64,000 nt of DNA from Candidatus Latescibacterota bacterium (GTDB taxonomy: Bacteria > Latescibacterota > UBA2968), in NCBI GenBank assembly GCA_965198115.1, contig OZ240241.1, positions 8,362,056-8,426,055 of the forward strand. Reading direction: 5' to 3'. The notes under the pieces are model-generated. The model saw only the letters and a program-made list of their open reading frames with translations. It searched no databases and was not told where the DNA came from. Of the stretch, positions 16,759 through 27,219 are shown in pieces. The position numbers and the translations under genes are program-made. Numbering within the stretch: the first letter of the stretch is position 1; each line of letters opens with the position of its first letter.

Positions 16759-18178
16759 GGCTATATCCGGATCTCTCAACGAGATGAAGTGGGTGAAGGT
16801 GCCGTGGTTCCTGGCATGGGGGCGCGGTTAGAGTGTGCGGAACCTCTTCGGAATCTGCTCAGGGATGTTTATGTCTCCGACGGTAAGGAAGATCATATCG
16901 TTGAATGCGTCGAGTGTGCGGAATCCGCTGGCTCGGTTCTTGACGATTTGGACGATTCGGTTGAGGCCTTCGGCGATGGCGTTGGTAAGACGCGTGTTCA
17001 CGAATGCGAGGACGCCGAAGAAGTGCTGTCGCAGGGTCCTGACGAACTTTCGCAGGGGTTCAAGTCGACTTCTGAGTGCGGACGTCGTCCAGCATTTCAG
17101 GAAGCGTTCGGCAGCCCAGGGCGCTTTGTATTCCCAGAACTGCTCGAACTCGTCCTTGAGTCTCCAGGCTCTATAGATTCGGTAGTTCGCCTTCTCCAGT
17201 GCTTTGAGTGTCCGAGTATCCCCTCTGGAGCGTGTCGCTGAGTGCCGGTAGAGGAGCCATCGGAGGCCCTTCATGGCTTTGCGCTCATCCGGGGCAGCTT
17301 TACGCCACTGGTCCTTACGGACCTCGTCAACGGCGGCATTGAGAGCCTTGACGATGTGAAAGCGATCGAGGACCAGCTTGGCATTCGGACAGTGTTCCTG
17401 GATGGCTCCGATGTAAGCTTCGCTCATGTCGCAGCAGGCCCACTCGATCTTGGATCTCCGGTAGGGACTGAGAGCCTCTGTGAAGAACCGATCGATCGTT
17501 TTACGCGCCCTGCCGCGGCCAACCCACACCACGCAGGAGCGGTCCAGATCGTAAACGAGCGTGGCGTACCTGTGACGCTTGGCGTAGGAGATCTCGTCGA
17601 TCCCGATGGTTTTGAGCCCTCGGATACGATGACCTTCACGAAGCCGCGTGATGGATCGGTGAAGGAGATCCGACAGCGTCGAGGCAGAGATGCGCAGTAA
17701 CTCGGACGCCGCCTTCTGCGTCATGGTCTGGCAGTAGCGCAGCATGGCATACTCGAAGCGATACGTCACCCGAGAGAACCGCTCCGCCCACGGAATCTCC
17801 TCGACCACACGACCGTGGGTAGGACACCGAATCTCCCGAGGATGGTAGAGAAGCCAGACCCTCCACCCGCACACCGGAATGTCACGCCACCGACGCGGAT
17901 GGGGCATTGTGCGGACGATTTTACCTCGACGGCCGCACTCCGGACAACAACAACCATTCTTATGTGGCTTTACGGCGATGACGAAACAGCTTCTCCCCTC
18001 AAACCACCAGCTGACAACACGGAACCCCTTGAATCTCAGCAGTTTCGATAGTAATCTGCTCCCGGTCATAGGTCGCACCCCCTTCGCTTTGATTGTCCTA
18101 CACACACAACCAAGCGTAGGGAACGATCTATGACCTTGTCATTCTATAGTTTCATCGTTGAGAAACCCGGATAGAGCC
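16759..18178 (-). mobile_element. ISL3-family element, copy 1 (1420 bp)
   Basis: IRs GGCTATATCCGG / CCGGATAGAGCC; 8-bp TSD GAAAAAAA; near-identical to 58644-60063 and 60071-61490. Confidence 0.95.
16828..18105 (-). CDS. ISL3-family transposase
   Basis: CPECG zinc finger, IGIDE, CDMS, DRFHIVK, TNAIAEGLN; start may be ATG 18069. Confidence 0.95.
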   Translation of the reverse strand: MCRTIKAKGVRPMTGSRLLSKLLRFKGFRVVSWWFEGRSCFVIAVKPHKNGCCCPECGRRGKIVRTMPHPRRWRDIPVCGWRVWLLYHPREIRCPTHGRVVEEIPWAERFSRVTYRFEYAMLRYCQTMTQKAASELLRISASTLSDLLHRSITRLREGHRIRGLKTIGIDEISYAKRHRYATLVYDLDRSCVVWVGRGRARKTIDRFFTEALSPYRRSKIEWACCDMSEAYIGAIQEHCPNAKLVLDRFHIVKALNAAVDEVRKDQWRKAAPDERKAMKGLRWLLYRHSATRSRGDTRTLKALEKANYRIYRAWRLKDEFEQFWEYKAPWAAERFLKCWTTSALRSRLEPLRKFVRTLRQHFFGVLAFVNTRLTNAIAEGLNRIVQIVKNRASGFRTLDAFNDMIFLTVGDINIPEQIPKRFRTL

Positions 18179-18647: not shown

Positions 18648-19914
18648 TAAGTGCATGGTTTCATAAACATTATTACGTATGTCCTGAACATTATTTGTAG
18701 CTTATGTTCTCCTTCAAAAGGAGGAGAACAATGCCAAGACGTTCGCCTTATGTGGTGCTACTGTCTGAGAAGGAACGGGTCGACCTCGAGCGAATGGCTG
18801 GACAATATACGTTATCGTATTATAAAGTGATCCGATCGAAAATCGTGCTTCTCGCCGCCGAGGGATTATCCAACAAGATTATCGCCCAACGGTTGGATGT
18901 CCCGCGTCCGATCGTAAGCAAATGGCGTAAGCGCTTTTTCGAAGAGCGTCTTTCGGGACTCGAAGATAGATCTCGTCCCGGGCGCCCGCCCGGTTTTCCC
19001 CCCTCAGGTGGTCGTTCAGATCAAGGCGCTGGCGTGTGAACTACCGAGCGAGAGCGGGATACCGCTCTCGCGGTTCAGCTGTTCCGAGATTGCCGCCGAG
19101 GCAGTGCAAAGGGGCTTCGTTGCCAAGATCAGCGGCGCCACTGTCTGGCGCTGGTTGAACGAGGACGCGATTCGTCCTTGGTATCATCGCTCCTGGATTT
19201 TCCCACGGGACCCGGACTTCCAAACCAAAGCAGGTAGAGTCCTTGATCTGTATCACCGCCAATGGCAAGGAAAGCCTTTAGGGCCGAGGGAATATGTACT
19301 TTCTGCCGACGAAAAGACCAGTATTCAAGCACGAGCTCGCAAGCACGTTACCCTACCGCCAGCCTCGAACAGAGCGGCACGCGTTGAACACGAATACGAG
19401 CGGAAAGGAGCCCTGGCCTATCTGGCTGCTCTCGACGTGCACAATGGTCGAATCTTCGGTCTCTGTGAGTCTTCTTCGGGTATCGAGCCCTTCAACCGGC
19501 TCCTGAGCCTGATCATGAGCCGGAAACCCTATTGCTCGGCAAAGAAAGTCTACCTCATCGTGGATAATGGCTCCTCGCACCGAGGGCAAACATGCATCGA
19601 CCGTATCCAGGGGAAGTGGCCAAACATCCACCCCGTTCACCTTCCGATCCACGCAAGCTGGCTCAATCAGATCGAGATCTACTTCTCGATCCTCAAACGC
19701 AAGGCTCTGACACCTATCGAATTTGCATCGCTCGAAGAGCTTGAGGCAAGAATCCTCGGTTTTCAGGAACGCTACGGACGTATCGCCACACCCTTCAAAT
19801 GGAAGTTCACACGAACAGATCTCGCGGAGATGATCGACAAACTCAGGTTCTACGATACGCCCTTGGCAAAGTCTGCTTAGAATACGTCACCGTATTTGAG
19901 AACAGGAGTACTAA
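18648..19914 (+). mobile_element. IS630-family element
   Basis: CTAAG at both flanks (TA target), imperfect IRs ending ...ACGTAT; right end duplicated at 42980-43193. Confidence 0.85.
18731..19880 (+). CDS. IS630 transposase in two frames (likely programmed -1 frameshift at TTTTCCCCCC near 18995)
   Basis: HTH ORF (to 19039) plus DDE ORF 19008-19880 with SADEK, VDN.SSH, HASWLNQIE. Confidence 0.88.
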
Positions 19915-20101: not shown

Positions 20102-20509
20102 ATGGAGGAACGGCCGTGGCCAGAGTGGCGCGGCGGGAAGCCCCTTACGCAGCGCGGCCTTGCCCGGCTGTTAGGGCCTTTCAGCGTTCGACCCCAACAG
20201 CTTTGGATCGATGGGGCGAAGACACGGGGCTACAATCGCGATGACTTCGTAGACGCCTGGACGCGCTACCTAGTTCCTGACCCTCCCACCGGGGCTTTTT
20301 CCGAGGGACCCCCGGCCCCAAGTGGTAGGTCCGGTAGGACCCGCGTCAGGACTGCGTTTCAGCCAGATTCGCAAGCGGTAGGCGCTCGCAATCCTACCAG
20401 TTGCGAAAACGCCCAAAAACCGCGCCAGGACTGCCTCCTACCGGTCCTACCACTTGCAAACCGCCCATCTGAGACGGAAGTGAATGAAGATGGCTGGACG
20501 GAGGTATGA
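20102..20509 (+). pseudogene. C-terminal fragment of a DUF3631-type primase/replication-associated protein
   Basis: EERPWPEWRGGKPLTQRGLARLL...TRGY...F.DAWTRYL signature; N-terminus missing. Confidence 0.65.
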
Positions 20510-21547
20510 CCATGACCTGAGCTATTGGAGATGCTGCGCCTACCGGAAGACGGTTGCCGCACTATCCCGACTCCCGACGTGGCTCGCGGGATCCGGCCTC
20601 GTTCTCTCCTGCTTACTGCCCAGAGTCCTTTGAAAGGGAGCCCCAGCCAAATGTCCGCTAACATCGGAAAAACCAAGGTCGCAACGGAGTAGCGAAGCGT
20701 TCAAGACGCAGGTTCGCACTCACTGTGGCGAAGAAAAAACGTTTGCTCAAAGCGATCCGGCTCGGTATGTCCTACGCGCACGCGGCGCTGTACGGGCATT
20801 GCCGAAAAGACGTTCTACAATGTTCAAGTAATTGAAACCCGACGGCTTGCCGGACCCCCCCCGAGATTCCTGAGAGTGTCTACGTCCGATGCTGTGACCA
20901 TTCGATTGTCCTTTGCATCGGGGATGTTGTCCCTCTTGACGTAGATTTCAAGTGGAGTCAGGTTGACTTTGCCGAAAGTTCATGCAAGTGAACTGCAGGC
21001 TGTTGGCGACAGCCTACGTTTTCGTTCGATGCAAGCTGTCCCACCGGAATTGCTGTCCGCCATTCGCACCCACCACCCCCCCCCCCCCCAAGCCGATCGG
21101 CGCTCCTGAGCGCCCTCAAGGCCCTTCCCGGGTCAGGGATGGCCACAGCACGATCACGGGCCAGGACGCCGGCGACGTGGGATCAGCAGGACGGCCGAAG
21201 CAGTTTCACGAACCGTGGGTTGGGGGTCGGGGGTCTTTTCCCTGGGTCGGGGGGTCTTTTCCGCGCTTGGCGCAAGCCTGAAAAGCACCAACGCGTTACT
21301 AGTACTTCTTATGAAGTACTAGAGAGAGCATCGTAGACAGGATATAATATCCGTATTATCAGTCGGTTAGATCAATTTCGGCCGCGTTATTGCCGGACGC
21401 CCTATTCCACCTCCTTTCACAGATGCGCCTACGCCCGCCGCCGCCGTGGGTGGAGGACGAAGGACCTGGTAGTCACGACAAGGGGATGCGGCACAAGGGG
21501 ATTCGCAAGGGTCTGCAGATGCACGAGGCCCAGGAACTGGCTCTGGC

Positions 21548-21745
21548 TTCTCGTCCATCCCGGTCTTGGCGGCGGCGACAGCGAGTGTCTTTTCCTTCGG
21601 TATCAGCGACATTAATCTCCTCACCTGTGCATCCGTGACCATCTAACCTCCCATCACAACAAGGGGTTAGATAACCTACGGCCATCCCCGCAAAACGGGA
21701 ATTATGGTTTGTCGTCAGGTGGGAGTTCTAATTTGTCGCTAATCA
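21548..21745 (-). mobile_element. IS21-family left-end relic with the first codons of istA
   Basis: MVTDAQVRRLMSLIPKEKTLAVAAAKTGMDEK then an abrupt switch; repeated TTTGTCG terminal boxes at 21709-21740. Confidence 0.6.
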
Positions 21746-21769: not shown

Positions 21770-22523
21770 TCACCGCTTCCGCTTGCTATTCTTTCGCCGC
21801 TGGCGCTCTTGCTGCTTCAACATCCGCTTGGGCATGACGCTACTTTCGGGAAATCGGATTCCGTTTGTCCCCGCGAGTTTGATCATCTCCCGTAGCTCCA
21901 TCTCGAACTGCGTAGACGACAGATGAGGTCGAAGCACCGTCAGTTTCGGGCCGTGGCAGTCCCGCAGCTTGCGCCCTCCACCACACGGGCACGCCATCAA
22001 AGGTGGGGAAAAATTATCCGCCAAACACTTGAGTAACTTCATCGCCTCGATTAGAGGGACCTTAAAGAACTCCACGTAGTACTGTTGTAAACCCGCTTCC
22101 CCATGCAAAAGCTCGCCGAAGGGTAGTTTTCCGTAGTTTCTCTTGTAGCTGTAGGCAAAGAGATAGGGAATGACTTGATCGTTGATGAAGCGGAGGAGGT
22201 TCTTATGCTCGGCGAATTGTCGGCGGACCTCGACCGGAGCTCCAAGGCAGAAGTTGCCATCTGCCATAAAGTGGCCAAAATCTTTTGGAATCTTGCTTTC
22301 TGTCTCGTAAACGAAAGGCGGTGAAGCGGGATAATCGTTGGGAATCTTGAACTCCAGGTTGTAATAATCTTCAATCCTGAGGGAGTCGTGCTCCATCGAG
22401 AAGCCGACACCTCCCAGTATCCGGAGCGCACCGGAGGGATCACGAAGTAGCTCTAGGGTGGGATGCCCGAGCTTGCACTTCCGTCATCTGGTCGATCACA
22501 AGCTGTTCTACTCCTTCATCCAC
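21770..22523 (-). pseudogene. Prokaryotic E2 (ubiquitin-conjugating-like) protein with a C-terminal SEC-C motif; one-base frameshift near 22467
   Basis: IPNDYPASPP.VYE, GHFMADGNFCLG (H..G..C), ELLHG..G, CPCGGGRKLRDCHG; GTG start overlaps the CD-NTase stop. Confidence 0.75.
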
Positions 22524-23401
22524 AGGAGTCAGGGGCCCATGGCTTACTTGGCCGCGACGGTAGCTCAATTTTGGGCGTTGTAGGTTGCTCGGACTTACGC
22601 GGTACAAGCACTAATGGTGCAGCGGAGTACTTCAACATCGCTGCCTCCGCGTCACGTCTACCATAGGCCTTGCGTAGGTAGTCCCCGACCTTCTCGAATC
22701 CTTGCTCGGTTAGGAGTTCTTTGTACTCCCGCTCGAGCACGTGGAGCCACCTGAAGAGCATCTCTGCCTTGCGCGGTTTTTCGGCCCACTTGTCGGCAAA
22801 ATTCTCCTCCGGATTCACGGGATTCGGCACCCACCAGGAAGCGCCGTCGCGCTTCTCGATGTAATCGCGCATGCGTGGTATTACGTCCAGCACAGCTTCC
22901 GTGAGGTCGGATTCGTTGTTGTAAGCCTGTGCTGCGAGCGTGGTGATGATGATCGAGATGGGCTTATCTTCATCGTCGTTGAAGCGCACGTCTCGGTGGC
23001 GTTTGAGGATCTGGATAAGCCGTTGGAGCGGGGTGCGAACGTCGAAGTCTTCAATTTCTTCTACTTCCGCTCGTATCTCCATCGCGTGTAATTGCTTGGC
23101 CTTCTCGAGGCTCACACGCATACGGTCCTTGAACCAGGCGACGTACCCCTTAGGGTTGCTTCGAGGCCACTCTGCGTTGGGGTCGCCCCATGTCTTGCGG
23201 TCGGTCAGACAGATGGCGGTTTCCGCCCACTCCATAGGCACGCCGAGCGCAACAAGCACACCATAGTCATCCGGGATTGCCGGGAGCACATCCAGATGGA
23301 ACTTTGACGCGTCGGCGTACCTAATTGTCCAGCAGCGGAGACCGCCGGCCGGTGGCTCGATCATGTCCTTATACCGGCTCTGCGGATGCTTGAGACGATC
23401 G

Positions 23402-24775
23402 GAGCTATAATCAAAAGGTGTGGAAAAAGAGAAAGGGCGACCCTACCCTTCCCGTGAGATAGTTGATTCACACAAAACCGGGTGAGAGGCCCGGTTGGGA
23501 AGGAGGATCGCCGTGAAGGAACATACGCATAGAGCCCCATTGAAGTCCATGCCGACGTGGGAGACGGTTGACGATTGGATCCGTGAAGAGATCCAGGGCC
23601 GGTTCCAGTCCATTCTGGAGGAGGAGGCGACCGCGTTCTTGGGCCGGTCGTGGTATGAGCGCCGAGCCGAGGTCGATAGCTCCAGGGGCTACAGGAACGG
23701 CTACGGCAAGCCCCGGCGTCTCTCGACGAGCTGCGGAACGATCAAGGTCCGGCGTCCCCGGGTTCGTGGTCTGGAAGAGCGGTTTGAAAGCCGCATCCTC
23801 CCCCTGTTCGCCCGGAGAACCAGGGCCATTGGAGATCTGCTTCCCGACCTTTATCTCCACGGTCTCTCCCAGGGCGACTTCGAGTTGTCTTTGCGTGCGC
23901 TGCTCGGTGATGGCGCGCCGCTTTCGCCGACCTCGATCGCTCGTCTTCGAGGGAAGTGGGAGGTCGACTTCCAGGACTGGAAAGAAAGGCGTCTGGATAA
24001 TCGCGAACTGGTCTACGCCTGGGCTGATGGCATCTACGTCAAAGCCGGGCTCGAGCGCGAGAAGGCGTGTCTGCTGGTCGTGATCGGCGCGATGAGCGAC
24101 GGCAGCAAGGAGATCCTGGCGATAGAACCCGGTTATCGAGAGTCTACAGAATCCTGGCTCACGGTGCTACGGGATCTCCGGGATCGCGGGCTCGAACATC
24201 CTGTCCTGATCGCCGCGGACGGGAATATGGGCATCTGGGCGGCCGTTGATCAGGTCTGGCCAGAGAGCCGGCAACAACGGTGCTGGAACCACAAGATCCT
24301 CAACGTGCTCGACAAGGTCGCCAAGCGTGCACAGGCTGAAGCCCGCGCACTGCTCGTCCAGATCCCCTATGCCGGCACGAAAAAGGAGGCCGAGAAGCTC
24401 CGGAAACGCTTTGCCGCACGGTATCGCTCACAGTTCCCTGCCGCCGTGGAGACGCTCGAAAGAGACTGGGATCGGATGGTCACGTTCTACGACTTCCCGA
24501 AGGAACACTGGAAACACCTGAGAACCACGAACGTCGTCGAGAGCCCCTTTGCTTCCGTTCGGCTTCGCACAAACGCCGCCAGGCGATTCAAGAAAGTCAG
24601 GAACGCCACGACTCTCATCTGGCGTACGCTCAAGGTCGCAGAGAGCCGATTCAGGAAACTCACCGCGCCACACTTGCTACAACAAGTCTACGATCAGAAA
24701 CACTCAACCGGACCGCAGGTCGAAACCGGGAAGATGGCCGCCTGATTTCTTTTACACACCTATTGACCTGAGCTC
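23402..24775 (+). mobile_element. IS256-family element (distinct from 9484-10774)
   Basis: IRs GAGCTATAATCAAAAGGTGTG / rc GAGCTCAGGTCAATAGGTGTG; 8-bp TSD GACGATCG at 23394-23401 and 24776-24783. Confidence 0.92.
23513..24745 (+). CDS. IS256-family transposase
   Basis: GYRNGY, WADGIY, ADG..G.W, QRCWNHK, RTTNVVES; AGGAGG RBS. Confidence 0.93.
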   Translation: MKEHTHRAPLKSMPTWETVDDWIREEIQGRFQSILEEEATAFLGRSWYERRAEVDSSRGYRNGYGKPRRLSTSCGTIKVRRPRVRGLEERFESRILPLFARRTRAIGDLLPDLYLHGLSQGDFELSLRALLGDGAPLSPTSIARLRGKWEVDFQDWKERRLDNRELVYAWADGIYVKAGLEREKACLLVVIGAMSDGSKEILAIEPGYRESTESWLTVLRDLRDRGLEHPVLIAADGNMGIWAAVDQVWPESRQQRCWNHKILNVLDKVAKRAQAEARALLVQIPYAGTKKEAEKLRKRFAARYRSQFPAAVETLERDWDRMVTFYDFPKEHWKHLRTTNVVESPFASVRLRTNAARRFKKVRNATTLIWRTLKVAESRFRKLTAPHLLQQVYDQKHSTGPQVETGKMAA

Positions 24776-25055
24776 GACGATCGCCTACTAAATTCTTCAG
24801 CTTCTTTTGCGTGACTTGGTTAGGTGCGAGTTGCAGCAGACAGACTGTGTCCACGTCATACTCTTCGTCGCCGAGAGGCTTTACTGCGGTACCCAGTGCA
24901 AACGAACCCTGTGGTATATGGACAATTGGTAGCGGGCTAGCTCCGAGCCATCTAGCCACGCGCCGACAGCCTCGTAGTGCTCTGTGGCTTCGCGATATTT
25001 GGATGGAGGAATATCGAGTTCTTCTGCAAGATTCTGGAGAATTCGGTTCAGGCGT

Positions 25056-25440
25056 TTACGGCCAATGTGTTCGTTCAATTCGTACTCCCTTCAAGCGATA
25101 GAAACGCTGCGATTTGGCTGCGTTGTGCGTGAAAACGTGATCCGCTTTGGCGATCCAGTCGTGTTTTTTTTCAGTTGAATCCATGGAAAGCGACTGATCC
25201 GACTCAAACGTCAGTCGTAAAACTTTCGGTTCGAGCGGACTCTCGCCCAACAGCAAGCAGAGCATGTTGTGTGCGTTGTTAGATTGGAGATTGAAGATCA
25301 GATCGATGAACTTGCTGCCCCGCCATCGGGTTGCGAATCCCCATCCCTGCCAGCTGTAAACGAGCCGGTCTTTCCACTTGCCTTTGCTCCGAGGGTAGAA
25401 CGTGGTGGTTTTCCCCGTCCCAATGGCCAGTGACCCGGCA
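25056..25440 (-). pseudogene. C-terminal fragment of a patatin-like phospholipase (CapV-like CBASS effector)
   Basis: LAIGTG...WG....W....IDLIFNLQS...H..L..LLG pattern; overlaps the CD-NTase start; catalytic N-terminus (GGG.RG, GxSxG) absent. Confidence 0.6.
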
Positions 25441-25534: not shown

Positions 25535-26110
25535 ATGCGATCACATCACACGACGAGAGATAAATGGCTACTCAGACCATTGACAAGTGGAGATAGATCG
25601 ATGATCGACCCCGAGTTTCAACTGCAACTCGAAATTTCAATGATGGCTGCCTGCTCTGAGGGGATTGAGCCCCGCGAAATAGGAGTGTGGGGGTCGAACA
25701 GCCAAGAGGCGTTGATTTTTGTGGAGGATTTCCGCAACGAACTCGATGATGATTGGCCCGGGGAATCAGGCTATGAGGAATATGCGCTCGCCCTGGCCCG
25801 CACCAGACTTGACGAGATTGACCGGAGTTCGCTCTCCTCTGCGTGGAAAGAAATCGCACGAGAGGCCGTGATGGTCACCTTGTTTTGTAGAACAAGCGAC
25901 CTCTATATCTATGCCGGTCTGCCTCCAGCGGTTCTATTGAACAGATTGGGCGGCAGGACCGCCGGAGCCATTTGGATCCTCTGTGAGTCTCTACTGCTCA
26001 TGAACCCTCTGGAAGCACGGGCGCATATACAGAAGTGGCTTACCGAAATTCCGGTGGCCCCTGGGTTCTCTCACGAGGATGAAACCAATCAAGGCAGAGC
26101 CGGGACCTAA
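25535..26110 (+). CDS. Hypothetical protein
   Basis: Open 191-codon frame with protein-like composition; no motif recognised; start may be ATG 25601. Confidence 0.5.
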   Translation: MRSHHTTRDKWLLRPLTSGDRSMIDPEFQLQLEISMMAACSEGIEPREIGVWGSNSQEALIFVEDFRNELDDDWPGESGYEEYALALARTRLDEIDRSSLSSAWKEIAREAVMVTLFCRTSDLYIYAGLPPAVLLNRLGGRTAGAIWILCESLLLMNPLEARAHIQKWLTEIPVAPGFSHEDETNQGRAGT

Positions 26111-26136
26111 ATGCAGATTTTCATAATGGTGAGAAT

Positions 26137-26532
26137 GTGAAACAGCCAGAGAAGGACGTGGGTGTTGCTCGATCTAACCCTGAAGAAGGGCCGGATAGGG
26201 ATGAACTTGGTCGGATCTTGCCAGGGCGTCGACCGGTGGGAAGAGCTGCAGGAACTCCCAACAAGATCAGCGCTGTGCGGGCCGAGTTCCTCAGGGTTTA
26301 CCATGAGAACAACGGTTACGAGCGTTTGGTGGAGTTGTTGGAGGAGGACAAGCCGACCTTCTTCAGGTTGTTTGTGGCGATGGTTCCGAAGCTGAAGATT
26401 CAGGAAACTCGTGACACGAGCGGGTTGGACATATCCGAAATATCCACCGACGAGCTCCTGGCGGCCCTGGGGCTCACGTGCATAGAAGAGGCTGAGGTAG
26501 AGGGTACAGGCGGGGGAAGTGGAGAGCAGTGA
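26137..26532 (+). CDS. Phage small-terminase-like / DUF5681-like protein
   Basis: RDELGRILPG...GR..GTPNK...FL.....G...L..L...D..F..L...VPK...DISEISTDELL pattern. Confidence 0.55.
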   Translation: MKQPEKDVGVARSNPEEGPDRDELGRILPGRRPVGRAAGTPNKISAVRAEFLRVYHENNGYERLVELLEEDKPTFFRLFVAMVPKLKIQETRDTSGLDISEISTDELLAALGLTCIEEAEVEGTGGGSGEQ

Positions 26533-26634
26533 GGTGATCGCCGTGGGATCAGTGGGGGCACACTCCGACTTTCGCCGGAGTCTTGCTGGCCTGGCGGCGT
26601 TCAGATGGCGTCTATAGGCTACGTGGTAACAGCC

Positions 26635-27219
26635 TCAAGCGTATTTTTGAACCGTTCCCCTCGGCACGTTCAGTTCCTTCGCGATCTCACCCAGACTCAT
26701 CTTCTTGTCCCGTCGGAGTGTCCTGATTCTCGAGACGGTCTTTTCCGGAACCCGTGGTCTGCCCAGCTTCTTTCCCTCGGCCTTTGCCTTGGCAAGACCG
26801 CTGCGGATCCGCTCTCTGATGATCTCCCGCTCGAACTCGGAGATGGCGCTGATGATTGTGAACATGGCCTTGCCCATCGGGCTGCTCGTGTCGATCTGCT
26901 CGTGCAGGCTGATGAAGTCCACGCCCAGGTGATTAAACTCCTCCAGGGCATCGACCAACTGCTTTGTTGACCTGGCGAACCGATCGAATCGATACACGAG
27001 GATCGTATCGACCTTGCGGCCTCGTACCAGGGTCCACAGACGGTCCAATTCGGGACGACGGTCTTTGGACCCGCTCTCTGTATCGACAAGCTCGTCTACG
27101 ACCTCCAGACCCCCCTGATGAGCGTATTCTCTAAGCTCCCTCACCTGCATCCCCACATCCTGACCGGTCGTTGAAACACGCGCGTAGATGGCTACACGGG
27201 CGTTCTTCCTCGGTGCCAT
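26635..27219 (-). CDS. Small serine recombinase (resolvase/invertase)
   Basis: YARVST, RPEL, DRFARS, EFEREIIRER..GL..AK..G..LGRP, C-terminal HTH. Confidence 0.93.
   Translation of the reverse strand: MAPRKNARVAIYARVSTTGQDVGMQVRELREYAHQGGLEVVDELVDTESGSKDRRPELDRLWTLVRGRKVDTILVYRFDRFARSTKQLVDALEEFNHLGVDFISLHEQIDTSSPMGKAMFTIISAISEFEREIIRERIRSGLAKAKAEGKKLGRPRVPEKTVSRIRTLRRDKKMSLGEIAKELNVPRGTVQKYA

What the first reader, a model, noticed from the sequence alone, without database searches (positions are those of the whole stretch)
21770..22560. E2 fused to a SEC-C zinc motif and a basic tail, paired with a cyclase ending ...PSKPWAPDSCG
Seen: the E2-like fold has H-x7-C (HFMADGNFC), then CPCGGGRKLRDCH and a very basic tail. 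The CD-NTase has a long Pro-rich tail ending in Gly, and one extra G would instead give KPWGP*. Known: CBASS E2 enzymes conjugate the cyclase through its C-terminus. Inference: E1-independent processing or conjugation of the cyclase tail, with the SEC-C/basic module as a possible nucleic-acid or target sensor. I do not know a defined role for that module.
Basis: partly seen in the sequence, partly recalled or inferred. Interest (0 to 1): 0.7.

Follow-up and report, generated by a model that had tools for sequence, protein, structure and literature searches.

The report
Broken E2-only CBASS with zinc-knuckle E2
This is a broken copy of a bacterial anti-phage alarm operon (E2-only CBASS) whose ubiquitin-E2-like gene carries a SecA-type metal knuckle; the glycine at the cyclase's end is a frameshift by-product, and intact relatives mostly carry arginine or serine where the one studied system needs glycine, so they likely attach or hold the cyclase by different rules.

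Summary
The motifs are real: E2 fold (PADLOC E2, E 4e-60; structural match to SmE2), His-x7-Cys, SEC-C knuckle, basic tail. But the operon (CapV, CdnG cyclase, E2) is a pseudogene. CapV lost its 5' two-thirds, an IS256 splits the cyclase, and four single-base frameshifts hit all three genes, including the E2 start. The assembly is accurate, and same-sample contigs carry all four. The ...APDSCG glycine is read-through into the E2 start. The six closest relatives aligned have an extra A there (KPW-RP/SP), not the proposed G. The E2-SEC-C architecture is normal for a large, catalogued family; the basic tail is clade-specific. The open point is family-wide. Catalytic Cys is invariant, yet the residue equivalent to Serratia G406 is Arg in 63 of 113 close cyclases, and G406R kills the Serratia system. 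Its Arg codons (11 of 11 AGR) look tied to the E2 ribosome-binding site. The solved Vibrio CdnG (9WOO) ends KPW-FKQ, and a near-identical plasmid copy sits beside such an E2. This scan reported the family before in other genomes. Ordinary, dead locus; modestly interesting unstudied variant.

The parts
25056..25438 (-). 3' remnant of a CapV-type patatin phospholipase effector gene (about codons 207-325 of the 325-aa relative); 5' part missing; one-base loss at about 25114
   Evidence: PADLOC PDLC00758 E 8.5e-08; DNA homology to L001-L003 starts at 25438, tblastn 83% over residues 207-320; indel in 4-relative alignment; L001 gene is Pfam Patatin
24776..25078 (-). 5' part of the clade-G CD-NTase (cyclase) gene, TTG start; one-base loss at about 24912 just before the QGS motif
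   Evidence: PADLOC cyclase hits in two frames, Pfam DncV-like_NTFase, alignment, run X3 carries the base
23402..24775 (+). IS256-family element inserted in the cyclase gene; transposase ORF 23495-24745; 26-nt imperfect inverted ends; 8-bp target duplication at 23394-23401 and 24776-24783
   Evidence: NCBIfam NF033543 E 4.8e-88; repeats; 132 near-full copies in the genome
22516..23401 (-). 3' part of the cyclase gene; ancestral stop TGA at 22531-22529 after KPW-x-P; a one-base loss at 22536/22537 gives the read-through end KPWAPDSCG with stop at 22518-22516
   Evidence: PADLOC PDLC00770 E 2.4e-86; best PDB hits 9WOO E 2e-42 and SmCdnG 8HSB E 6e-19; DNA alignment with 6 relatives; coordinates
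21770..22523 (-). E2-SEC-C gene: native GTG at 22523, extra base at about 22466 breaks the frame; remaining open frame 22471-21770 (internal ATG 22396)
   Evidence: alignment; PADLOC PDLC00871 E 4.3e-60; AlphaFold2 pLDDT 91; structural match to UFC1 Z 9.5 and SmE2 8HSB_B Z 8.1
22247..22273 (-). His-x7-Cys active-site segment (H67...C75 of the open frame P0001)
   Evidence: Cys 119 of 119, His 102 of 116 aligned close homologs; aligns to the catalytic Cys of eukaryotic-type E2s 2FO3, 2H2Y
22100..22108 (-). Second conserved His (H123 of P0001), likely equivalent of SmE2 H152
   Evidence: 119 of 119 and 150 of 150; structural range model 3-122 to chain 25-152; equivalence inferred from range ends only
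21953..21991 (-). SEC-C (SecA-type) metal knuckle C-x-C-x8-C-H, inside a small helical domain
   Evidence: 116 of 119 close and 140 of 150 distant relatives; Pfam PF02810 above cut-off in 3 of the 10 proteins scanned as distinct sequences P0135, P0179, P0265; 1OZB hit
21773..21832 (-). Basic C-terminal helix (net +10 in last 20 residues)
   Evidence: net charge at least +6 in 115 of 119 close but 32 of 150 distant relatives; predicted helix 215-232

Best explanation
This is a decayed copy of a three-gene E2-only CBASS anti-phage operon (CapV effector, clade-G cyclase, E2 with SEC-C knuckle) that most likely no longer functions, because all three genes are broken. Shown: the gene identities, the IS256 insertion, four frameshifts, loss of the CapV 5' part, and that the cyclase's terminal Gly is read-through. 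Inferred for intact relatives, by analogy with Serratia SmCdnG-SmE2: the E2 binds the cyclase through its Lys-Pro-Trp tail; Cys75 with His67 would attack the bond after the residue that follows the Trp (W-X|P) without E1 or ATP and hold the cyclase inactive; infection would release or chain it; it would then make a cyclic dinucleotide (likely 3'2'-cGAMP) that fires CapV and kills the cell. The SEC-C helical module is predicted to be a metal-stabilised extension standing where SmE2 has its regulatory C-terminal loop, a lid or docking surface more likely than a dedicated nucleic-acid sensor. I put about 0.9 on 'dead E2-only CBASS' and about 0.45 on covalent chemistry at a non-Gly residue in the intact clade.
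For: Gene identities. Same order CapV-cyclase-E2 intact in L001-L003 at 78-86% DNA identity. Lesions. Lesions are real: only 26 gap openings in 181,287 aligned bases of 132 IS256 copies (0.14 per kb, an upper bound on assembly error) against 4 in about 2.3 kb here; contigs of runs X1 and X2 (one sample, possibly the source) match across all four sites without gaps, while run X3 of another study has the intact allele at 22466 and 24912. No second cyclase, E2 or CapV 5' part elsewhere in the genome. E2 catalytic residues under strong constraint. Tail register: SmCdnG ends Y405-G406-E407; here 104 of 113 close cyclases have exactly two residues after the Trp and none has fewer. Cyclase and E2 occur as one in-frame fusion in L047/P0179 with QPW-SP kept at the junction. 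Predicted complex of the intact L001 pair: weak support, score 0.49, best of 3 controls 0.00, runs agree in at least 88% of contacts, partner pLDDT at least 82; the mark was reached by 116 of 157 solved and 2 of 215 mismatched pairs, but at 0.60 or under by only 18 of the 157 and by both mismatches, and a like complex (8HSB) is solved.
Against: In Serratia G406V, G406L and G406R abolish linkage, and in the E1E2 system Gly to Ser, Val, Arg or Trp abolishes conjugation, so covalent chemistry at Arg/Ser contradicts both studied systems. Pro at P1' is unusual for a cysteine protease (general knowledge). Deleting E407 did not stop linkage in Serratia, which weakens the argument from tail length. 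No Lys equivalent to SmE2 K159 follows H123. His-Cys spacing is x7 here against x13 (H87-C101) in SmE2. One contig of another study (X6, depth 2) carries the APDSCG allele, so that allele could have existed in a working operon, giving KPW-A, a tolerated residue. No transcript or protein data.
Confidence: 0.8

Rival explanations
1. One reading: a working system in which the E2 conjugates the cyclase through the terminal Gly of APDSCG (or a true KPWGP end).
For: The sequence does end in Gly; Gly is the conjugation residue in studied systems; Gly follows the Trp in 20 of 113 close cyclases, one of them KPW-GP; the allele is also seen in run X6.
Against: Lost base is A in 6 of 6 relatives; the Gly codon overlaps the E2 start codon; none of the 113 tails reads APDSCG; the cyclase is split by IS256 and lacks an in-frame QGS/DxD part, and the E2 start is frameshifted.
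Confidence: 0.04
2. In the intact non-Gly clade the E2 does not conjugate the cyclase tail: it binds it non-covalently as an inhibitor or scaffold, or uses its Cys on another substrate such as a phage protein, so the residue after the Trp drifts and is shaped by the E2 ribosome-binding site.
For: The residue is highly variable (R63, G20, S14, K7, M4, N2, C2, Q1 of 113; Phe in 9WOO); small/large state changes at least 5-7 times on an E2 tree of 48 labelled rows; Arg codons are AGR in 11 of 11 against 75 of 436 in the same genes' bodies, forming TGGAG(G) 7-14 bases before the E2 start; G406R kills SmCdnG linkage; VcCdnG makes 3'2'-cGAMP alone in vitro (abstract and first results).
Against: Cys and both His stay nearly invariant in exactly this clade; K-P-W and the two-residue overhang are tightly kept, as expected if the end enters an active site. 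AGR codons can also be inherited from GGR by single transitions, and the lineages are not independent.
Confidence: 0.35
3. The E2 cuts and conjugates after the invariant Trp (P1 = Trp), so both following residues are a disposable leaving group.
For: W/Y is the only invariant C-terminal residue; the next residue accepts Gly, Arg, Ser, Lys, Met, Phe.
Against: No tail has fewer than two residues after the Trp (0 of 113; 0 of 45); in SmCdnG the aromatic Y405 is dispensable and G406 is the linked residue; distant KPY-A-R/K tails keep Ala (9 of 45), fitting the Gly/Ala rule.
Confidence: 0.15
4. The frameshifts are assembly errors and the E2 gene is intact.
For: Single-contig assemblies from long reads can carry one-base indels (general knowledge); three of the four sit at or beside short base runs.
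Against: Low indel rate across IS copies; Logan contigs of X1 and X2 show the same alleles (may be the source data, so not fully independent); X6 of another study shares one of them; IS256 and the CapV truncation break the operon regardless.
Confidence: 0.03
5. The truncated 208-aa frame from ATG 22396 is still made and serves as a stand-alone metal/nucleic-acid-binding protein.
For: The frame from 22471 to 21770 has no stop and keeps all motifs; a few database relatives are called from the same ATG (P0064, P0106).
Against: It lacks the first helix and part of the E2 sheet; no partner genes remain; RNA runs X7 and X9 laid no contig on 22300-22700 (not proof of absence); lesions are too recent for intactness to show selection.
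Confidence: 0.05

Closest known systems
Serratia marcescens E2-CBASS, SmCdnG-SmE2 (PDB 8HSB, 8YJY, 9KKB; bioRxiv 10.1101/2022.05.25.493364; PMC12948482)
   Same: Clade-G cyclase plus a lone E2, no E1 or JAB beside it; E2 fold (Z 8.1, rmsd 3.2, 108 aligned); catalytic Cys and two His; cyclase ends aromatic-X-X'; cyclase E 6e-19.
   Different: SmE2 is about 160 aa with a C-terminal loop carrying K159; here about 250 aa with a helical SEC-C domain and basic helix. SmCdnG needs Gly/Ala at 406; this clade has mostly Arg/Ser. Effector CapV instead of 2TM-SAVED. This copy is broken.
PADLOC CBASS E2 family PDLC00871 (type II-short CBASS)
   Same: E 4.3e-60 over profile positions 18-239 of 241, so knuckle and most of the tail lie inside the catalogued model.
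   Different: A catalogue model, with no tested function for the SEC-C part found in my paper searches.
Vibrio cholerae CdnG-Cap5 (PDB 9WOO; PMC12804361)
   Same: Closest solved cyclase (E 2e-42); ends KPW-FKQ, no Gly; a copy differing at 5 of 396 residues on Vibrio gigantis plasmid p1 is followed directly by an E2 of this family (hhalign probability 99.6).
   Different: Effector is HNH-SAVED Cap5; the paper's main text has no mention of Cap2 and its two 'ubiquitin' hits are a tag protease and a reference; that E2's knuckle ends C-D, not C-H.
SecA C-terminal metal-binding domain / SEC-C motif (PF02810; YecA, YchJ)
   Same: C-x-C-x8-C-H ligand pattern; profile hit to 1OZB.
   Different: Embedded in a helical domain, not terminal; the Ser needed for iron preference in SecA (bioRxiv 10.1101/613315, abstract and one section) is Gly here, Ser in 125 of 140 distant and 60 of 116 close relatives.
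Type II CBASS with Cap2 (E1-E2) and Cap3 (PMC10097602, PMC11153139)
   Same: E2 Cys chemistry on the cyclase C-terminus.
   Different: Needs E1, ATP and a terminal Gly/Ala; no E1 domain on this protein and no E1/JAB gene seen next to it.

Membership tests
Type II-short (E2-only) CBASS | CD-NTase gene | tested here: met
   PADLOC cyclase models on all three pieces; broken in this copy, intact in L001-L003, L006
Type II-short (E2-only) CBASS | Adjacent effector gene | tested here: met
   CapV-type remnant; whole patatin gene in L001
Type II-short (E2-only) CBASS | Stand-alone E2 with catalytic Cys | tested here: met
Type II-short (E2-only) CBASS | No E1 or JAB gene in the operon | tested here: met
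   Flanking ORFs scanned give IS, resolvase, DUF3631 or nothing; relatives' flanks were read from ORF lists, not scanned
Functional CBASS locus | Intact reading frames of cyclase, effector and E2 | tested here: not met
   IS256, four frameshifts, CapV truncation
Serratia-type E2-CBASS chemistry | Gly (or Ala) at the linked position after the aromatic residue | tested here: not met
   Ancestral Arg/Ser by 6 relatives; Gly in 20 and Ala in 0 of 113 close cyclases; the frameshifted allele itself reads Ala there
Serratia-type E2-CBASS chemistry | Catalytic Cys plus H87- and H152-type histidines | tested here: inconclusive
   C75, H67, H123 conserved; residue-level equivalence inferred from alignment range only; spacing differs
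Serratia-type E2-CBASS chemistry | Acceptor Lys (K159) in a C-terminal loop | tested here: inconclusive
   No Lys seven residues after H123; K148 is kept in 116 of 119 close homologs but falls under 85% in distant ones
Serratia-type E2-CBASS chemistry | Covalent cyclase-E2 adduct and poly-cyclase chains | not testable with these tools
   Only a weak complex prediction without contacts
SEC-C motif (PF02810) | C-x-C-x8-C-H/C pattern and profile match | tested here: met
   Pattern present and conserved; this copy scores under Pfam's cut-off, relatives pass
SEC-C motif (PF02810) | Metal binding; SecB/ribosome binding | not testable with these tools
   No assay; SecA role from abstract of 10.1101/613315
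Type II CBASS (Cap2/Cap3) | E1 domain fused to E2 and a JAB peptidase | tested here: not met
   Protein is about 250 aa; long E1-E2 models score only E 0.04-0.06; no ThiF/JAB Pfam hit among the 10 ORFs scanned

The most novel reading that the evidence does not exclude
A large E2-only CBASS branch has broken the glycine rule of ubiquitin-like conjugation: its zinc-knuckle E2 reads a Lys-Pro-Trp degron-like tail and transpeptidates at almost any following residue (Arg, Ser, Lys, Met, Phe), even before Pro, which freed that codon to serve as the E2 gene's ribosome-binding site; the SEC-C/basic module is the infection-sensing switch.
Probability: 0.25. Interest if true: 0.7.

Novelty: new variant of a known kind. 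Interest (0 to 1): 0.33.

Why it matters
This copy matters little: it shows a defence operon decaying in an IS-rich genome. The family matters more. Both studied CBASS conjugation systems, like ubiquitin, need a small residue (Gly/Ala) at the linked position, and the E2-CBASS papers call that Gly highly conserved. Here an E2 branch of at least 389 clusters at 50% identity (E up to 1e-30) keeps its catalytic residues, while the cyclases of the nearest clade naturally carry the substitution that kills the Serratia system. Either E2 conjugation can be sequence-tolerant, which would be new chemistry and a possible peptide-ligation tool, or these E2s regulate without conjugating the tail. One two-protein mixing experiment decides it.

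Tried and rejected
Assembly-error reading: rejected. KPWGP as ancestral end: rejected. Cyclase-E2 fusion by the paired -1/+1 frameshifts: rejected, the shifted frame stops at 22516. A second intact CBASS copy elsewhere in the genome: none found. Fold of the SEC-C/helical module alone (model pLDDT 84): no Foldseek match at E up to 0.001, best VIA-align Z 4.6 to a MarR protein, within noise; this neither supports nor excludes nucleic-acid binding. Foldseek on the whole E2 gave only E above 0.001, all top rows E2/UEV folds. NCBIfam and PHROGs: no family for the E2. Habitat and expression: RNA runs labelled sponge metagenome held 0.11-0.30 of the words, and X7, X9 laid no contig on 22300-22700, so no claim is made. 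Paper searches for an E2-SEC-C CBASS study found none; the library lacks most subscription papers, and two PMC ids I recalled for Burroughs 2015 and Millman 2020 were not held, so their text, the figures of all papers and the Extended Data alignments of the Serratia preprint were not seen and may already show such E2s or tails. Earlier-findings look-ups by sequence and place returned nothing. Rows dropped before counts: window itself and fusion L047 from the tail survey, L036 without motif; 6 of 119 cyclase homologs without a terminal motif; the E2 partners of those 119 were not checked.

Full report
Observation. PADLOC places the downstream frame in CBASS E2 model PDLC00871 (E 4.3e-60, profile 18-239 of 241) and the upstream one in cyclase models (best E 2.4e-86). 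An AlphaFold2 model (mean pLDDT 91) matches UFC1 (Z 9.5, rmsd 3.0, 104 aligned) and the Serratia CBASS E2 8HSB_B (Z 8.1, rmsd 3.2, 108 aligned) over residues 1-122. The knuckle scores under Pfam's cut-off here, but a profile of relatives hits the SecA peptide 1OZB (E 6e-4).

The operon is broken. Upstream lies a CapV-type phospholipase remnant; DNA homology to intact relatives begins only at 25438, about codon 207 of 325, and the 5' part is nowhere else in the genome. It has a one-base loss at about 25114. The cyclase starts at 25078, loses a base at about 24912 just before QGS, and is split by an IS256 at 23402-24775 with an 8-bp target duplication. It loses another base after the Trp codon of KPW. 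No other cyclase or E2 of these kinds was found in the genome.

The lesions are real. The 132 near-full IS256 copies show 26 gap openings in 181,287 aligned bases, an upper bound of 0.14 per kb; four indels in about 2.3 kb is over ten times that. Logan contigs of runs X1 and X2 (one sample, possibly the source data) match across all four sites without gaps. Run X3, from another study, has the intact alleles at 22466 (20 bases from a contig end) and 24912. One depth-2 contig of run X6, from a third study, carries the APDSCG allele. That allele may therefore be older than the other lesions; it reads KPW-A, so if it was ever processed it would be at the Ala, not at the terminal Gly.

The terminal Gly is an accident. 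All 6 relatives aligned at DNA level have A at the lost position, giving KPW-RP or KPW-SP followed by TGA. The Gly codon of APDSCG overlaps the E2 start codon. Among the 119 best cyclase homologs (of 7,395 hits), 113 end in the motif; the residue after W/Y is R 63, G 20, S 14, K 7, M 4, N 2, C 2, Q 1; the 30 closest are all R or S; 104 have exactly two residues after the Trp and none fewer (their E2 partners were not checked). In loci where the E2 is adjacent, 45 distinct tails gave G 13, R 11, A 9, S 5, Q 3, K 3, T 1 (L036 had no motif; window and fusion L047 left out).

The E2-SEC-C architecture is ordinary for its family. The catalytic Cys is present in 119 of 119 close homologs, a second His (H123) in 119 of 119, the knuckle in 116 of 119 and a tail of net +6 or more in 115 of 119. 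A profile search found 2,321 clusters at 50% identity with E up to 0.001, 1,641 up to 1e-10 and 389 up to 1e-30 (weak hits may be knuckle-only or other E2s). In the best 150: Cys 148 (2 gaps), second His 150, knuckle 140, strongly basic tail only 32. A His lies 6-9 residues before the Cys in 131 of 138 with a readable motif. The Ser that favours iron in SecA (10.1101/613315, abstract and one section) is Gly here and Ser in 125 of 140 distant relatives. The C-terminal module folded alone (pLDDT 84) has no clear structural match.

What is known. In Serratia E2-CBASS the lone E2 cuts after G406, links the cyclase to C101 and K159 without cofactors, inhibits it, and poly-cyclase chains activate it; G406V/L/R, C101A and H87A abolish linkage, G406A and deletion of E407 do not (10.1101/2022.05.25.493364: parts 1-2, section 7 and passages). 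PMC12948482 (parts 1-3) calls the terminal Gly highly conserved in E2-CBASS and mentions cyclase-E2 fusions; the parts read mention no zinc module. In the E1E2 system Gly to Ser, Val, Arg or Trp abolishes conjugation (PMC10097602, passages). PMC11153139 and PMC12359967 (passages) have no SEC-C or zinc hits; PMC11381338 (passages) has SEC-C only in the unrelated Rugutis system. The closest solved cyclase, VcCdnG (9WOO; PMC12804361, part 1 and passages), makes 3'2'-cGAMP and ends KPW-FKQ; a copy differing at 5 of 396 residues on a Vibrio gigantis plasmid is followed by an E2 of this family, which the paper's main text does not discuss. Searches for a study of SEC-C-bearing CBASS E2s found none; two key surveys were not held, and figures and supplements were not seen.

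Mechanism. Shown: identity of the genes and their decay. Inferred for intact relatives: the E2 binds the K-P-W tail. Support: conserved adjacency, a natural in-frame fusion keeping QPW-SP at the junction, and a weak complex prediction for the L001 pair (0.49, best of 3 controls 0.00; contact agreement at least 88%, partner pLDDT at least 82; the mark was reached by 116 of 157 solved and 2 of 215 mismatched pairs, at 0.60 or under by 18 of 157 and both mismatches; a like complex is solved). The aromatic-X-X' register matches SmCdnG Y405-G406-E407, so X is the expected linked residue. I give about 0.45 to covalent attack after X with relaxed specificity, 0.35 to non-covalent control or another substrate, 0.15 to attack after the Trp. 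On an E2 tree (50 rows, 48 labelled) small and large X alternate at least 5 to 7 times (long branches meet at the base). Arg at X uses AGA/AGG in 11 of 11 cases against 75 of 436 in the same genes, and Ser uses AGY in 5 of 5 against 127 of 279 (binomial p 4e-9 and 0.02, overstated because lineages are related). With the Trp codon this spells TGGAG(G) 7-14 bases before the E2 start, so the codon likely doubles as the E2 ribosome-binding site; descent from GGR by one transition is the alternative. The product is likely 3'2'-cGAMP, from the SNPxGY lid segment shared with 9WOO and 8HSB. The SEC-C helical module follows H123, where SmE2 has its regulatory loop (range ends only); a lid or docking role is my inference, and a nucleic-acid sensor role has no support beyond charge.

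Novelty and verdict. The locus is a pseudogenised member of a known system type. The family differs from the one studied member in a defining feature (Gly/Ala at the linked position: tested, not met) and in the added knuckle, so I file it as a new variant of a known kind, catalogued by PADLOC but apparently unstudied. Four earlier notes of this scan describe the same family in other genomes; I had reached the non-Gly reading before the look-up, and they are not independent evidence. New here are the proof that this copy's Gly is a frameshift by-product, the contrast with G406R, the codon bias at X and the link to 9WOO. Interest 0.33; novel case probability 0.25, interest 0.7 if true.

Noticed in passing
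whole genome G000; window 16828-18105, 18704-19880, 23402-24775: Massive IS expansion: 132 IS256, 223 ISL3-like and 66 IS630-like near-full copies at over 99% identity (the ISL3 and IS630 names are my reading of the ORFs, not scanned). IS256 duplications are 8 bp in 74 and 9 bp in 19 of 126 copies with both ends.
   Followed up: partly
L047:322-2202 (G011); P0179: Natural in-frame fusion of cyclase, E2 and SEC-C (616-626 aa) with QPW-SP kept at the junction. Such fusions are mentioned in PMC12948482.
   Followed up: partly
P0135 (660 aa): E2-SEC-C fused behind a metallo-beta-lactamase-like region (my reading of the THLD..H motif; Pfam gave only SEC-C) that ends in a cyclase-like ...RPSKPWA tail, as if a non-cyclase protein carries the same tail. 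Could be a called read-through.
   Followed up: no
L065:2771-4663 (NZ_AP025494.1): Near-identical copy of the solved VcCdnG lies between a SAVED gene and an unannotated E2 of this family.
   Followed up: yes
L005, L011, L012, L020, L021, L026, L029, L030, L033, L034, L038: Many relatives appear to sit inside or beside type I restriction-modification loci, and effectors alternate between CapV-like and HNH-SAVED-like genes (read from ORF lists; not scanned).
   Followed up: no
L004:3102-4937, L007:4007-4937: Two of the seven closest genome loci also have a truncated or IS-interrupted cyclase, so decay of this operon is recurrent.
   Followed up: no
L038:4775-6523; P0355, P0366, P0370: A second cyclase type ending in an AGS-C domain (PF18134 precomputed for the P ids) lies directly behind the E2 in L038.
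   Followed up: no
window 25535-27219: Where the CapV 5' part should be lie two ORFs of no known family (191 and 131 aa) and a serine resolvase/invertase, suggesting a mobile segment replaced it.
   Followed up: partly
window 20102-20509 and 21367-21642: Downstream of the E2: a DUF3631 C-terminal fragment and what reads like a transposase N-terminal fragment.
   Followed up: no
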